Assembly: GCA_963728205.1 (NCBI GenBank)
Contig: CAVSIV010000004.1
Location: forward strand, 96,001-160,000
DNA length: 64,000 nucleotides
Origin: an uncultured Chloroflexia bacterium
Lineage (GTDB): Bacteria; Chloroflexota; Dehalococcoidia; UBA2979
Reading direction: 5' to 3'
Shown here one piece after another: positions 38,363-41,222 of the stretch. How positions within the stretch are numbered: position 1 is the stretch's first letter; each line of letters opens with the position of its first letter. The notes beneath the pieces are model-generated. The model searched no databases, was not told the origin of the DNA, and saw only the letters and a program-made list of their open reading frames with translations. The position numbers and the translations under genes were made by a program.

Positions 38363-39193
38363 TCAGACGGGGAGACCGGTGCTGAACAGGATGCCGCGCG
38401 CCAGCACTTCCCCGGCCAGAACCGTGCCGAGCGCGATGTACAGCAGTCCGGTCGCGGACATCATGCCCCGGATGCGCGCCGCGCGCCAAGCCAGCAGCGC
38501 CAGGAACGCGGGGAAGACCAGGCCGACGGCGATGCGCAGCCAGTACGCCGGGTTCTGCGCCAGACCGACCCCGAAGCCCTCGGTCAACGGCACGTCGCGC
38601 GCCGGCAGCGCGCTGCCCACGACGACGAGCACCGCCTGCACGACGAGCGCCCCGAGCACGACGAGCGACATCTGCTCCATCGGCTCCTTCGGGAGCCGGC
38701 CGGAGGTGAGGTACCAGTGCCCCCACATCATCGCCATCAGCGCCCCGCCCAGCACGGCGGCGGAGGCGAAGATGCTCGCGAGCATCCCGGCGTACGACCA
38801 CGTCGGCGCGGCCACGAGGCCGGCGAGCGCGGCGAGCGCGACCACCCCCGCGGCGCAGCCGAGTGCCCCGGCGACGAGCGTCGCCCGGCGCCGCTCGACG
38901 AACGCGCCCAGCAGGTGCGCGACGGCGAACGCGACGAAGACGACGAGCGCGGCGCGGAACGGCCCGAGCCACCGCGGCGCGAGCACGTAGCCGTCGAGCT
39001 CGCTGCGCCCGCCGAGTCCGGCGGCGACCCACAGCGCAAGCAGCGCGAGCGGGACGATGGTGATGCCGGCGGCCTTGACGTACCCGGTCGTGACTTGGCG
39101 GCGGGCGTCGAAGACGGTGGCCATGGCGAGCGACCCGACCGCCAGCTCGACCAGCAGGATGAGCACGGCGTAGGGCAGAGAGGCGGCACTCAC
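38363..39193 (-). CDS. Polytopic membrane protein (~8 TM, GHWYL motif), function unknown
   Basis: Hydrophobic segments; AMMWGHWYL and SATGLLY motifs. Confidence 0.65.
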   Translation of the reverse strand: MSAASLPYAVLILLVELAVGSLAMATVFDARRQVTTGYVKAAGITIVPLALLALWVAAGLGGRSELDGYVLAPRWLGPFRAALVVFVAFAVAHLLGAFVERRRATLVAGALGCAAGVVALAALAGLVAAPTWSYAGMLASIFASAAVLGGALMAMMWGHWYLTSGRLPKEPMEQMSLVVLGALVVQAVLVVVGSALPARDVPLTEGFGVGLAQNPAYWLRIAVGLVFPAFLALLAWRAARIRGMMSATGLLYIALGTVLAGEVLARGILFSTGLPV

Positions 39194-39265
39194 GGGAGCG
39201 CAATCGTAGGGAGCGGCACCGGGAGGGGCAACGCGGCCCGCCCGGGGGGTGTCCCCATCATCCAG

Positions 39266-40477
39266 TCAAGCGGCGACGCGCGAGCGCATGGTGTGTGTTG
39301 CGTCGTAGGCGGTGCCGGACTTGAGCATCGCAAGGATCACGTCGCAGCGACGGCGAGCGAGGCAGATGACGGCGGCGTTGTGCTTCTTCCCCTGAGCGCG
39401 CTTGCGGTCGTAGAAGGCTCGGGAGGGCGGATGCCGCAGGGAGCAGAAGGCCGCGAGGAAGAGTGCATTCTTCAGCCGGTGGTTCCCCCGGCGGCTCCGC
39501 TTCTCGCCCCGGATGCTGGTACCCGACTGGCGCGTGACCGGAGCCAGTCCCGCGTAGCTCGCGAGCTGGGCGCCTGTGGCGAAGCGAGCGCCGTCACCGA
39601 TCTCGGCGAGGATCTTCGCGCCGGTCCTGGGGCCCACGCCGGGGAGCGATATCAGGACCGGCCCCAGAGGGTGGCTGCGGAAGACCTCCTCGATCTGAAC
39701 GAGGATCCGGCTGCGTCTGGCGTCGAGCCGGCCGAGTTCGGTGGCGAGCTCTGCAACGATCGGTCCAATGCGCCGCTCGCTTTGTACGGTGATCGTCTGG
39801 GCGTCGAGTGCGCTGAAGACCTCGTCCGCGAGGCGCGCGGCGACTCGGGGCGCCTGCCGCCGAAGCAGTCGCAGCACGGGACCACGGCCGGCCGCGCGGA
39901 GAGCCGACGGGGTGGGGTAGCGGGCAAGCAGCGCCCACGCCGCGGGGTGATCCAGTCGTGGACCGAGCACGGCCTCGAGTGGTGGATGCACGCTCGTGAG
40001 CATGTCGCGCAGCCGGTTCACCAGGCGGACTCGGTCCGCGGCGAGGTCATCGTCGTACCCCGAGAGGAGGCGCAGCTCCTCGAGCAGCTCGTCGCCGACG
40101 GCCAGCCAGCGCAGGTTCCCTGGGTGGGTTCGTGCGAAGTCGGCAAGGACGAAGCTGTCGCGGACGTCCGTCTTCGCCTCGCCCGGGTAGAGATCTGCGG
40201 CTCGTCGCATGACCAGCCCGGGCACGTAGGCGACAGGGACACCGATCTCTCGGCACACGGCAAGCGTCAGCGCGGCAATCGACCCCGGCTGGTCCAACAC
40301 CACTCCGGCATGCCCGATCGACGCTGCCGTCGACAGCAGCGCCTGAAGATCGGCCTGCTGATTCCGAACCGCGCGGGACGACAGCACCTCGCCGCCACCG
40401 TTGATCAGCGTTGCGTGGTGCTCGGTCTTTCCGACGTCGAGCCCAATGAACACATCGACCCGTGCCTCGGTCGGCAT
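39266..40477 (-). CDS. IS110 family DEDD transposase/recombinase
   Basis: IGLDVGK, VLDQPG, KTD.RD, SLPGVGP and LASYAGLAP.TRQSGTS (catalytic Ser) motifs; GGAGG SD. Confidence 0.95.
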   Translation of the reverse strand: MPTEARVDVFIGLDVGKTEHHATLINGGGEVLSSRAVRNQQADLQALLSTAASIGHAGVVLDQPGSIAALTLAVCREIGVPVAYVPGLVMRRAADLYPGEAKTDVRDSFVLADFARTHPGNLRWLAVGDELLEELRLLSGYDDDLAADRVRLVNRLRDMLTSVHPPLEAVLGPRLDHPAAWALLARYPTPSALRAAGRGPVLRLLRRQAPRVAARLADEVFSALDAQTITVQSERRIGPIVAELATELGRLDARRSRILVQIEEVFRSHPLGPVLISLPGVGPRTGAKILAEIGDGARFATGAQLASYAGLAPVTRQSGTSIRGEKRSRRGNHRLKNALFLAAFCSLRHPPSRAFYDRKRAQGKKHNAAVICLARRRCDVILAMLKSGTAYDATHTMRSRVAA

Positions 40478-40489
40478 GCGCCCTCCGAT

Positions 40490-40695
40490 CGCGACCGCGC
40501 TTTGCGCATCCGACCGGGTGCCTCGGCCTGCATCCACCTTACGAACGAGCGCTCACGGCGCCGGTCCCCATCAGCGGTCCACGGCACCCAGCATCACCGG
40601 TGGCAACACCCCCCAGGTCCTCGAACAGACAGGGGGCAGATGAGCCATGCCGGCGACGCCGGATGTGATCACGGGCCGCGGTCAGCCCGGCGATC
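40490..40695 (-). ncRNA. Putative bridge RNA of the IS110 element (boundaries approximate)
   Basis: Contains donor-matching segments (40564-40573, 40535-40542) and target-matching segments (40606-40614, 40631-40639) in the target-loop then donor-loop order. Confidence 0.72.
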
Positions 40696-40841
40696 GCGAA
40701 GAAGGTAAGGGGGAGGGCGGCGGAGGGCGGCGTGAGCTCTCCGGGCGGTCGCCCGTCGCGGGACGCGAGCACGAGCGCGTTTGCCGCACGCGAGCACTCT
40801 CGGCCTGCGGCGCCGGGAACGGCTGGCGCCGCCCTGCTCGC

Positions 40842-41222
40842 CTACGCCCCACGCAGCTCTTCGACGCTGACCCCGTACTGGTACACCGCCACCGGGTTGC
40901 CGTCCGGGTCGCGGAACGCGAGTGTCACGCCGCCGGGGATGTCGTGGTAGTCGCGCGTGATGGCGACGCCGGCGGCCTTCAGGCCGCGCTTCACGGCCGC
41001 GATGTCGGCGACGCGGAATCCCGGCTCCCAGCCGGCGCTCCCGCCCGCAGCGTGAATGCCGACGTCGACGTTCGCCAGGCGCACCATCGCCCACCGCGGC
41101 GAGACCGACTGCACCGTCGCACCCAGCACGTCACGGTAGAACGCCACGGCCGCGGCCACGTCTGCGGCCGGCACCTGCAGGTGGTCCAGCAGACCGATCT
41201 CGACGCGCGGCTCGTCGCTCAT
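40842..41222 (-). CDS. VOC/glyoxalase family protein
   Basis: DH......D...AVAFYRDVLG, F.VAD and F.DPDGN motifs. Confidence 0.85.
   Translation of the reverse strand: MSDEPRVEIGLLDHLQVPAADVAAAVAFYRDVLGATVQSVSPRWAMVRLANVDVGIHAAGGSAGWEPGFRVADIAAVKRGLKAAGVAITRDYHDIPGGVTLAFRDPDGNPVAVYQYGVSVEELRGA

What the first reader, a model, noticed from the sequence alone, without database searches (positions are those of the whole stretch)
39244..40713. IS110 element with a directly readable bridge RNA: guides for both its donor junction and its target
Seen (element on the minus strand): the right end reads ...TGATGGGGACA-CC|CCCC and the left end CCC|CC-TTACCTT. Inside the 230-nt non-coding left end, plus-strand 40564-40573 GTCCCCATCA is identical to 39251-39260 (left donor guide). 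Segment 40535-40542 CACCTTAC equals the sequence that exists only after joining the ends (GACA-CC-TTAC), in the opposite orientation (right donor guide). Segment 40606-40614 ACACCCCCC is the reverse complement of the right junction 39244-39252 (right target guide plus possible handshake bases). Segment 40631-40639 AGGGGGCAG resembles the left junction AGGGGGAG (left target guide). Order and orientation match the target-loop/donor-loop layout established for IS621 bridge RNA. Inference: an intact programmable RNA-guided recombinase of the actinobacterial-like DQPG subgroup, with a CC core and a poly-C target, distinct from the characterised CT-core system.
Basis: partly seen in the sequence, partly recalled or inferred. 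Interest (0 to 1): 0.85.

Follow-up and report, generated by a model that had tools for sequence, protein, structure and literature searches.

The report
IS110 element with readable bridge RNA
This is an intact 1.46-kb IS110-family insertion sequence whose left end encodes a bridge RNA that matches both the element's own joined ends and its rare poly-C insertion site; it is a clear new example of an RNA-guided recombinase type described in 2024.

Summary
On the minus strand, 39249-40708 is a 1460-bp IS110-family element. It consists of a 231-nt non-coding left end, a 403-aa transposase (NCBIfam "IS110 family RNA-guided transposase", 231 bits) and a very short right end. A second copy has an identical left end, and a 42-nt left-end remnant lies elsewhere in the genome.

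Three are exact matches. The left target guide is only five C.

A covariance model built on 79 homologous left ends supports two stem/internal-loop modules: 93.9% of cells pair, and 20 of 30 pairs show compensatory changes. The four segments lie in the loops.

Across homologues the guides covary with DNA:
- The right target guide matches the right flank 5/5 in 59 of 64 elements, over four target classes.
- The donor guides track the element ends in 65 of 65 and 69 of 71 elements.
- A -35/-10 pair is rebuilt across the joined ends in 65 of 65.

So this is a bridge-RNA recombinase with a poly-C target, a new member of a known kind.

The "CC core" is only partly supported. Family data show one shared C. 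The next base stays with its own arm (0 of 37 distinct left flanks swapped).

No RNA, circle junction or exact empty site could be obtained.

The parts
39249..40708 (-). The IS110-family element, 1460 bp counting one copy of the shared C. The exact ends are ambiguous within the flanking C runs.
   Evidence: Two genomic copies are 99% identical and diverge outside these points. Homologous elements are 1443-1514 bp, or longer with extra right-end DNA.
40709..40713 (-). Left flank CCCCC, the left half of the target including the shared C.
   Evidence: Present at all three left junctions in this genome: copy 1, copy 2 and the remnant L003.
39244..39249 (-). Right flank CCCCCC, the shared C plus the right half of the target. 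Copy 2 has CCTCCC here.
40702..40707 (-). TACCTT, a -10-like hexamer at the start of the left end.
   Evidence: With the -35 in the right end it forms TTGACT-N17-TACCTT once the ends are joined. The arrangement is conserved in 65 of 65 homologues with a located right end.
40664..40697 (-). Predicted 5' part of the RNA with a 5' hairpin (GGGC...GCCC).
   Evidence: Sequence. The equivalent hairpin in relatives keeps pairing through changes on both sides, seen by eye in the sequences (for example L042, L052, L078). It was not counted formally.
40644..40663 (-). Target-binding module, 5' strand of the basal stem.
   Evidence: Helix 1 has 18 pairs, 95.3% of cells paired and 10 pairs with changes on both sides. 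Coordinates.
40631..40643 (-). 5' side of the target loop. The left target guide is CCCCC at 40636-40632, the same sense as the left flank.
   Evidence: In relatives with targets that are not poly-C, this loop repeats 7-10 nt of the left flank (L022, L042, L054, L067, L072, L078).
40617..40630 (-). Small hairpin inside the target loop (GUC...GAC).
   Evidence: Helix 2, 97.3% of cells paired.
40605..40616 (-). 3' side of the target loop. The right target guide is GGGGGG (40614-40609). It is followed by UGU (40608-40606), which is complementary to the last bases ACA of the element (handshake position).
   Evidence: It is the reverse complement of 39252-39244. In 59 of 64 homologues the 5 nt next to the C-pairing G pair perfectly with the first 5 nt of the right flank. 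This covers four target classes: CCCCC, TTTTT, CTTTT and CCTTT.
40587..40604 (-). Target-binding module, 3' strand of the basal stem.
40583..40589 (-). Donor-binding module, 5' strand of the basal stem (GGGUGCC). Its first three G can alternatively close the target stem.
   Evidence: Helix 3 has 5 pairs, all with changes on both sides, and 98.1% of cells paired. Fold of the module.
40564..40573 (-). Left donor guide UGAUGGGGAC, identical to the right end at 39260-39251.
   Evidence: In 65 of 65 homologues the element's own right-end variant (6 variants) gives the longest match to this loop, 1 of them a tie.
40546..40563 (-). Hairpin inside the donor loop (GGCGC-CGUGA-GCGCU).
   Evidence: Fold. 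The equivalent helix 4 in the family has 79.9% of cells paired and 4 of 4 pairs with changes on both sides.
40534..40542 (-). Right donor guide GUAAGG, followed by UGG. It is complementary to the joined ends (CA-CC-TTAC).
   Evidence: The variable base after GUAA is complementary to the base before TTAC in 69 of 71 homologues, over three states.
40516..40522 (-). Donor-binding module, 3' strand of the basal stem (GGCACCC). This is the predicted end of a roughly 180-nt RNA.
40481..40486 (-). GGAGGG, the likely ribosome-binding site of the transposase gene.
   Evidence: It lies a few bases before the ATG at 40477.
39266..40477 (-). Transposase gene, 403 aa.
   Evidence: PF01548 147 bits and PF02371 87.5 bits. 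NF033542 231 bits against a cut-off of 140. IS621 transposase 8wt6 at E 3.9e-20. D14, D62, D104, D107 and S318 sit at the positions of the catalytic residues.
39264..39269 (-). TTGACT, a -35-like hexamer that overlaps the stop codon TGA (39268-39266).
39250..39260 (-). Right end TGATGGGGACA, the left donor half-site.

Best explanation
This is a complete IS110-group insertion sequence. It moves by bridge-RNA-guided recombination of the kind shown for IS621.

When the two ends are joined (the excised form), TTGACT in the right end and TACCTT in the left end come to lie 17 nt apart. Together they should drive a roughly 180-nt RNA from the left end.

That RNA has a 5' hairpin and two stem/internal-loop modules.
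- First loop (target). It carries CCCCC, the same sense as the left half of the target, and GGGGGG, complementary to the right half. It therefore selects a run of about nine or more C. The following UG(U) can pair with the last bases of the element after strand exchange.
- Second loop (donor). It carries UGAUGGGGAC, the same as the right end, and GUAAGG, complementary to the shared C plus CTTAC of the left end. It therefore recognises the joined ends.

The 403-aa transposase has a RuvC-like domain with acidic residues D14, D62, D104 and D107, and a Tnp domain with Ser318. It would cut and rejoin at the shared C.

Shown here: the element's anatomy, its copies, the RNA structure by covariation, guide-DNA covariation across relatives, and the conserved junction promoter.

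Inferred: transcription, the circular form, catalysis and current activity.
For: - Family membership.
- Copies: two copies with identical 231-nt left ends and right ends, and 5 substitutions, all inside the open reading frame. These are the only two transposase genes and two RNA-model matches in the genome.
- Recent arrival: the insertion is missing between the same two genes in 3 of 3 same-genus genomes, so it arrived recently.
- RNA structure on 79 matches, 73 distinct: 93.9% of cells paired, against 81.2% in shuffles (0 of 500 reach it) and 33-46% when partners are slid. 20 of 30 pairs changed on both sides.
- Guide-DNA covariation:
  - right target guide 5/5 in 59 of 64 elements, with four target classes each matched
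  - right donor guide base complementary in 69 of 71
  - left donor guide best with its own end in 65 of 65, mean longest match 7.2 nt against 3.8 nt for other ends
  - left target guide repeats 7-10 nt of non-poly-C left flanks in 6 elements.
- Junction promoter: 65 of 65 have at least 4/6 matches to TTGACA, and 62 have at least 5/6. The spacer is 17-18 nt, with a TANNNT-type -10.
- Orientation rules are taken from PMC11208160 (passages) and PMC11208158 (passages).
- Target rarity: C or G runs of 8 or more occur only 4 times in 4.1 Mb at 72.5% GC, where base composition alone would give about 1566. This fits the low copy number.
Against: - No RNA data exist for this organism, and no circle junction or exact empty site was recovered.
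- In this element the left target guide is only C5 and is not above chance on its own.
- The left donor guide ends two bases before the shared C.
- The bases after the right donor guide (UGG) pair better with the donor's own CA than with the target's CC. In IS621 this kind of cognate pairing hinders strand exchange (PMC11208158).
- In the free RNA the two target guides pair with each other, CCCCC with GGGGG, so the loop must be opened.
- The residue at the place of IS621 Glu60 is Asp. That part of the alignment scores only 2.9 bits.
- The individual window-only matches are modest (38, 97 and 207 of 5000 shuffles).
Confidence: 0.88

Rival explanations
1. Same element and same RNA, but the shared 'core' is a single C rather than the dinucleotide CC. 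The strand is cut and joined directly after that C. The base that follows belongs to the left end (donor) or to the right half of the target, and need not match between them. This fits transfer of one strand rather than a two-base overlap.
For: - The test used relatives whose right donor guide predicts G or A before TTAC. Among them, 35 of 37 distinct left flanks carry that donor base and 0 carry the target's C or T. 37 of 39 distinct right flanks begin with the base that the right target guide predicts, and only 1 with the donor base.
- A two-base overlap with unlike second bases should give swapped junctions in about half of insertions.
- Two preprints report mainly single-strand (top-strand) excision or insertion for other IS110 elements: 10.1101/2025.10.25.684509 and 10.64898/2026.08.31.748434 (abstracts only).
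Against: - For this element and its 14 closest relatives, donor and target both read CC, so the two models cannot be told apart here.
- Biased repair, or selection against swapped products, could also remove them.
- No cleavage site was measured.
- Some left target guides do extend over the base after the C (L042, L067), as with a two-base core.
Confidence: 0.5
2. The element is a correct IS110 copy with a bridge RNA gene but is no longer mobile in this genome, that is, a recently dead or silenced element.
For: - There are only two full copies plus one 42-nt remnant.
- The copies differ by 5 substitutions, all inside the transposase frame.
- Two free runs of nine G/C and two sites like the target of copy 2 remain unoccupied.
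- The target loop is self-paired in the free RNA.
Against: - Both reading frames are open, and all candidate catalytic residues are present.
- The 231-nt left end and the right end are identical in both copies.
- The insertion is younger than the split from same-genus genomes.
Confidence: 0.15
3. The repeated segments are DNA sites bound by the transposase (subterminal repeats), not RNA guides. The similarity to flanks comes from low-complexity C/G runs.
For: The 10-nt direct repeat of the right end inside the left end could in principle be a protein-binding site. The target-side matches in this element are homopolymer runs, and the C5 match is at chance level.
Against: - In relatives the target-side segments change to A runs of exactly matching length when the flank changes to T runs. 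The left-side segments copy unrelated 7-10-nt flanks. A fixed protein site cannot do that.
- The segments sit in the unpaired sides of two stems that are kept by compensatory changes.
- The strand rule (same sense on the 5' side, complement on the 3' side) is the one solved for IS621.
Confidence: 0.03

Closest known systems
IS621 of Escherichia coli (bridge recombinase; structures 8wt6-8wt9)
   Same: - Two-domain transposase. The C-terminal domain aligns at E 3.9e-20, and the catalytic Ser region is conserved.
- Long non-coding left end and short right end.
- RNA of about 180 nt with a 5' hairpin, a target loop and a donor loop.
- The 5' side of each loop has the sense of the left half-site, and the 3' side is complementary to the right half-site.
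- Two bases after the right target guide pair with the end of the donor.
- A promoter is rebuilt across the joined ends (rules from PMC11208160 and PMC11208158, passages).
   Different: - The N-terminal domain is barely alignable (2.9 bits), and Asp stands at the place of Glu60.
- The protein has 403 aa, against a 328-aa chain for IS621.
- No Rfam family and no sequence likeness of the RNA.
- The shared base is C, or CC, instead of CT.
- The target is a homopolymer, so the two target guides are complementary to each other.
- The left donor guide does not reach the core.
- The bases after the right donor guide do not fit the target.
ISCro4 transposase (PDB 9t56) and IS622
   Same: The same family. 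ISCro4 aligns over the C-terminal domain at E 2.8e-17. IS622 is named as a bridge recombinase in a search listing (10.1101/2025.05.14.653916).
   Different: Distant in sequence. Their RNAs and targets were not compared here.
Homologous elements in Chloroflexota, Acidimicrobiia, Thermoleophilia and Streptomyces/Actinomycetes genomes (L004-L083)
   Same: - Transposases are 52-81% identical.
- The RNA architecture is the same (79 matches to the model).
- The ends are of the same type: TTACC... to ...GGGG(A)CA.
- The junction promoter is the same.
- Most also target poly-C.
   Different: - Some have re-targeted guides (C-T5, CC-T4, CCC-T3 with specific left halves).
- The base before TTAC is G or A instead of C.
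- Many Streptomyces copies carry 150-700 bp of extra DNA between the gene and the right end (lengths 1613-2173 bp).
IS1111 group of the IS110 family
   Same: A DEDD-type transposase and an RNA guide (PMC11208160, section 12).
   Different: IS1111 elements have a short left end, a long right end that holds the RNA, and 7-17-bp subterminal inverted repeats. Here the RNA is in a 231-nt left end, and only 16 nt lie between the stop codon and the shared C.

Membership tests
IS110 family, IS110 group (bridge-RNA recombinases) | N-terminal RuvC-like DEDD domain | tested here: met
   PF01548 at 147.4 bits over residues 11-165. D14, D104 and D107 are present. Asp62 stands where IS621 has Glu60, by a weak local alignment.
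IS110 family, IS110 group (bridge-RNA recombinases) | C-terminal Tnp domain with catalytic serine | tested here: met
   PF02371 at 87.5 bits. Residues 246-395 align with IS621 residues 174-322, and Ser318 in RQSGTS lies opposite the Ser of YESGSS. The identity of that Ser as S241 rests on an assumed two-residue offset of the chain.
IS110 family, IS110 group (bridge-RNA recombinases) | Curated family model above its cut-off | tested here: met
   NF033542 'IS110 family RNA-guided transposase' at 231.1 bits, cut-off 140.
IS110 family, IS110 group (bridge-RNA recombinases) | Long non-coding left end, short right end, no terminal inverted repeats | tested here: met
   The left end is 231 nt and the right end 16 nt after the stop codon. 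No inverted terminal repeat is seen in the end sequences (by eye).
IS110 family, IS110 group (bridge-RNA recombinases) | Left-end RNA with a 5' hairpin and two stem/internal-loop modules | tested here: met
IS110 family, IS110 group (bridge-RNA recombinases) | Loop segments pair with target and donor, and covary with them | tested here: met
   59 of 64, 69 of 71 and 65 of 65, plus 6 elements with specific left target guides.
IS110 family, IS110 group (bridge-RNA recombinases) | Short core shared by donor and target (CT in IS621) | tested here: inconclusive
   One C is shared in all elements. In this element CC is shared. In relatives the second base differs between donor and target and does not swap.
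IS110 family, IS110 group (bridge-RNA recombinases) | Handshake bases after each 3' guide that pair with the other DNA | tested here: inconclusive
   Target loop: UG(U) fits the donor's (A)CA in all elements, but it never varies, so there is no covariation. Donor loop: UGG fits the target's CCC at 2 of 3 positions and fits the donor's own CA.
IS110 family, IS110 group (bridge-RNA recombinases) | [quoted passage not shown] | tested here: met
   TTGACT-N17-TACCTT, conserved in 65 of 65. This is a sequence-level finding only.
IS110 family, IS110 group (bridge-RNA recombinases) | Circular intermediate, RNA expression and RNA-dependent recombination | not testable with these tools
   No RNA run was listed. 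Only short contigs of the element's interior turned up in one soil study.
IS1111 group | RNA in a long right end, and 7-17-bp subterminal inverted repeats | tested here: not met
   The right end is 16 nt, and the RNA model matches the left end.

The most novel reading that the evidence does not exclude
In this clade (Chloroflexota, Acidimicrobiia, Streptomyces) the exchange point is a single conserved C, and DNA is cut directly after it. The neighbouring bases on both sides belong to their own arms and may differ between donor and target.

That pattern is what transfer of one strand would leave. It differs from the two-base CT overlap and Holliday-junction route drawn for IS621.

In addition, because the target is a homopolymer, the two target guides close on each other in the free RNA. 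This could act as a built-in brake that the protein or the target must open.
Probability: 0.35. Interest if true: 0.55.

Novelty: new member of a known kind. Interest (0 to 1): 0.33.

Why it matters
The element adds a clean, natural example of bridge-RNA guidance from very GC-rich soil bacteria. All four guides, the junction promoter and natural re-targeting (G run to A runs of matching length) can be read straight from genomes.

For tool builders, it offers a recombinase that is only distantly related to IS621. It works with a C or CC core and a rare poly-C landing site.

For mechanism, the junctions of 37-39 independent insertions give a free natural experiment on how wide the exchanged core is. 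This bears on the current dispute between double-strand and single-strand transfer.

It does not change the picture of what IS110 elements are. NCBI's family model already names the protein an RNA-guided transposase. Bridge RNAs were predicted for 85.7% of catalogued IS110-group elements (PMC11208160, section 12).

Tried and rejected
Rfam. The scan of 38800-41200 at E up to 10 gave only six chance-level matches, the best at 21 bits against a 46-bit threshold. No bridge-RNA family matched.

Exact empty site.
- The two flanking genes are adjacent without the element in 3 of 3 same-genus genomes (gaps of 27-85 nt).
- Those genes are only 71-75% identical, and the spacer does not align at the insertion point. 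The number of C in the empty site could therefore not be read.

Public runs.
- No RNA holder was listed.
- Two runs of one soil study hold three short contigs (151, 171 and 207 nt) identical to 40292-40442, 40467-40637 and 40357-40563.
- No contig crosses either end.
- The only joint listed (40100 to 40962 in X3, 21-nt side, 29 other letters between) looks unrelated.

Structure.
- RNAalifold on the MAFFT alignment found the target stem but missed the donor stem, because the 3' strand was shifted by one column between groups. Re-alignment to a covariance model solved this.
- The minimum-energy fold of the whole left end (z -2.65) pairs the two target guides with each other and pairs the far 5' with the far 3' end. 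I did not rely on it.

Script corrections.
- A first regex extraction of guides and ends mis-anchored many loci. It was replaced by column-based extraction.
- A first build of the joined ends lacked one C and was corrected.
- One search was an unfinished script and produced nothing used.

Rows dropped.
- Of 80 fetched loci plus 2 own copies, 71 had both anchor motifs and entered the tables.
- Lacking an anchor: L005, L016, L017, L032, L034, L041, L051, L060, L064, L069 and L079.
- 65 of the 71 had a located right end, and 64 of those had at least 5 nt of right flank.

Two-base overlap models. Both the version C plus the next base and the version previous base plus C were considered. They are disfavoured for the clade because swapped junctions are essentially absent. 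Possible single exceptions are L065, whose right end lacks the A, and L059, whose contig starts with AC before GTTACC.

Literature.
- A search for IS110 + bridge RNA + Streptomyces gave 6 papers.
- A search for IS110 + core dinucleotide + orthologs listed 15 of 148.
- Neither listing showed a paper on this clade or on a poly-C target. This rests on titles and abstract starts only.

No earlier notes were seen.
Full report
WHAT IS THERE

On the minus strand the window holds a compact mobile element.
- Its left end starts with TTACCTT at 40708, after a run of five C (40713-40709).
- A 231-nt stretch without a long open frame follows.
- Then come a GGAGGG ribosome site and an ATG at 40477, which opens a 403-codon frame ending at 39266.
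- The stop codon lies inside TTGACT.
- Sixteen bases later the element ends with TGATGGGGACA (39260-39250), followed by six C (39249-39244).

The protein matches both Pfam domains of IS110 transposases (147 and 87.5 bits). It also matches NCBI's model 'IS110 family RNA-guided transposase' (231 bits, cut-off 140).

Its C-terminal domain aligns with the IS621 transposase of the solved synaptic complexes (8wt6, E 3.9e-20). A Ser (S318, RQSGTS) lies opposite the Ser of YESGSS. The N-terminal part aligns only weakly (2.9 bits), with D14, D104 and D107 in place and Asp62 where IS621 has Glu60.

ARE THE ENDS REAL?

The assembly (6 contigs, 4.1 Mb, 72.5% GC) has a second copy (L002) that is 99% identical.
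- Likeness begins and ends at the same bases, with other flanks: GG-CCCCCC before TTACC, and CC-TCCCCGCC after ...GACA.
- The copies differ by five substitutions, all inside the gene. Left and right ends are identical and there are no indels.
- A 42-nt remnant of the left end, again preceded by CCCCC, sits in a tandem repeat on contig 6.
- These are the only two transposase genes of the family and the only two matches to the RNA model in the genome.
- In three same-genus genomes the two neighbouring genes are adjacent with no element between them. One encodes a glyoxalase-fold protein, the other a membrane protein of no known family.
- The spacer is too diverged to read the empty site base by base.

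THE FOUR SEGMENTS

By the IS621 rules the 5' side of each loop has the sense of the left half-site, and the 3' side is complementary to the right half-site (PMC11208160 section 7; PMC11208158). Read that way:
- CCCCC (40636-40632) is the left target guide.
- GGGGGG (40614-40609) is the right target guide. The following UGU is complementary to the element's last ACA.
- UGAUGGGGAC (40573-40564) is the left donor guide.
- GUAAGG(UG) (40542-40535) is the right donor guide, complementary to the joined ends.

Within this window alone the matches are only moderately unusual. They were reached in 38, 97 and 207 of 5000 dinucleotide shuffles. The first two together were reached in 2 of 5000. The C5 match is at chance, 4943 of 5000.

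COMPARATIVE TEST

A scan of one genome per species returned 516 confirmed relatives, of which the best 80 were kept.
- One Chloroflexota genome carries a relative at 81% identity.
- Acidimicrobiia, Thermoleophilia and Dehalococcoidia genomes carry relatives at 59-65%.
- Streptomyces and other actinomycetes carry relatives at 52-57%.

Of the 80 loci plus the 2 own copies, 71 had both anchor motifs and were tabulated.

A covariance model built from 64 distinct left ends found 79 matches. On that alignment the structure is a long basal stem, an internal loop with a small hairpin, then a second stem and a second internal loop with a hairpin:
- 93.9% of cells are paired, against 81.2% after shuffling (0 of 500 reach it) and 33-46% when partners are slid by 1-3 columns.
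- 20 of 30 pairs show changes on both sides.

The four segments fall in the four unpaired sides of the two loops.

The guides follow the DNA:
- Right target guide. In 59 of 64 elements the five bases next to the C-pairing G are perfectly complementary to the first five bases of the right flank. Four different targets (CCCCC, TTTTT, CTTTT, CCTTT) are each met by GGGGG, AAAAA, AAAAG and AAAGG.
- The five imperfect cases are explained as follows. Copy 2 of this genome has one G-T wobble. L061 and L083 have one mismatch each. L063 abuts another element. L066 has a right end joined to a left-end-like GTTACGG.
- Left target guide. In six elements with specific left flanks the loop repeats 7-10 nt of that flank, for example ten bases in L078 and L067.
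- Left donor guide. For 65 of 65 elements, their own right-end variant out of six gives the longest match (one tie). The mean is 7.2 nt, against 3.8 nt for foreign variants.
- Right donor guide. The one variable base is complementary to the base before TTAC in 69 of 71 elements (C/G 15, G/C 41, A/U 13, two misfits).

PROMOTER

When the right end is placed before the left end, a -35-like hexamer lies 17-18 nt before a TAC..T hexamer in all 65 elements with a located right end.
- The -35 has at least 5 of 6 matches to TTGACA in 62 of the 65, and 4 of 6 in the other 3.
- Here the arrangement is TTGACT-N17-TACCTT.

This is the arrangement reported for IS621 (PMC11208160 section 5). It predicts an RNA of about 180 nt, close to the 177 nt of IS621.

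TARGET

The deduced site of copy 1 is a run of nine C. That of copy 2 is C6-T-C4.

Runs of eight or more C or G are extremely rare in this genome: two of 8 and two of 9. Base composition alone would give about 1566. The element therefore aims at a scarce, intergenic kind of site. Two free runs of nine and two C6-T-C4-like sites remain.

A side effect follows. The two target guides are complementary to each other and pair in the predicted free RNA.

THE CORE

The clade says more.

The base after the first C is C, G or A in different element lineages and covaries with the right donor guide. At the right junction the base after the C is C or T and covaries with the right target guide.

The informative elements are those whose donor base is G or A:
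- 35 of 37 distinct left flanks carry the donor base, and none carries the target's base.
- 37 of 39 distinct right flanks start with the base the target guide predicts.

If two bases were exchanged as an overlap, unlike second bases would give swapped junctions in about half of insertions. Likewise the base before the C is A at right junctions and C at left junctions.

So only one C is demonstrably common, and the joining point lies directly after it. This is what one-strand transfer would leave, as two preprints propose for other IS110 elements (abstracts only). Biased repair cannot be excluded, and no cut site was measured.

DIFFERENCES FROM IS621, BESIDES SEQUENCE DISTANCE
- The left donor guide stops before the core here.
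- The bases after the right donor guide fit the donor's own CA rather than the target.
- An Asp stands at the second acidic position.

VERDICT

This is a bridge-RNA recombinase element with a poly-C target.

It is a new member of a known kind. Bridge RNAs were predicted for 85.7% of catalogued IS110-group elements and for thousands of orthologues (PMC11208160, sections 6 and 12), and the protein family model already bears the name.

The 'CC core' should be read as 'one shared C, here followed by a second C on both partners'.

Nothing here shows expression or activity.

I saw passages of the two Nature papers, two abstracts and three search listings. Supplementary tables were closed and may already list relatives.

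Noticed in passing
L003 1501-1542 (G000 contig 6, 1656057-1656098): A 42-nt remnant of the left end (CCCCC plus the first 37 nt) sits inside an array of direct repeats with a unit of about 82 nt. The remnant ends at GCGGCCCG, an 8-nt string that also occurs in the repeat unit. A deletion between these two short identical strings probably removed the rest of the element.
   Followed up: partly
whole genome G000: Runs of C or G are strongly avoided: 915 of length 6, 107 of length 7, 2 of length 8 and 2 of length 9. Base composition alone would give about 1566 runs of 8 or more. Free runs of nine lie at contig 6 positions 312366 and 1838111.
   Followed up: partly
L021, L024, L025, L030, L031, L033, L035-L040, L043-L045, L053, L056-L058, L061, L068, L071, L074, L076, L083: Many Streptomyces relatives carry 150-700 bp of extra DNA between the transposase stop codon and the right end (element lengths 1613-2173 bp against about 1455 bp). 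Several loci share this extra DNA. Its content was not analysed.
   Followed up: no
L060 about 60-110; L063 about 2690-2720; L027 about 1815-1850: A right end is followed, after only a few C, by the left end of another copy or of a different relative. These are head-to-tail neighbours, as expected if each insertion recreates a poly-C site on both sides.
   Followed up: no
L066 about 2712-2735: The right end of this Streptomyces element is joined to GTTACGG, which resembles the start of a left end, and not to the CCTTTT that its target guide predicts. It is possibly an insertion guided by the donor loop alone, or a remnant of a second copy.
   Followed up: no
left and right flanks of L022, L042, L054, L066, L072, L077, L078, L059, L070, L080: The relatives that target C-T runs sit in flanks that resemble one another across different genomes. 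One example is ...GGATTCGG.CC.GTCA... on the left. They seem to aim at a conserved site of some other repeated sequence.
   Followed up: no
L065 about 2700-2715; L059 1-8: Two odd junctions. L065's right end reads ...TAGGGGC followed directly by C, lacking the usual A. The L059 contig begins with AC before GTTACC. Either could be a rare swapped or circle-type junction, or an assembly effect.
   Followed up: no
window 40605-40643 (minus strand): Because the target is a homopolymer, the left and right target guides (CCCCC and GGGGGG) pair with each other in the predicted free RNA, closing the target loop. The same holds for all poly-C-targeting relatives.
   Followed up: partly
L107 (G012 contig 35, 138260-142462) and L004: The 81%-identical relative found in a same-family genome lies at the same coordinates as the named record behind L004, labelled a Chloroflexota bacterium. 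The window's host is therefore probably a Chloroflexota member, not an actinobacterium.
   Followed up: partly
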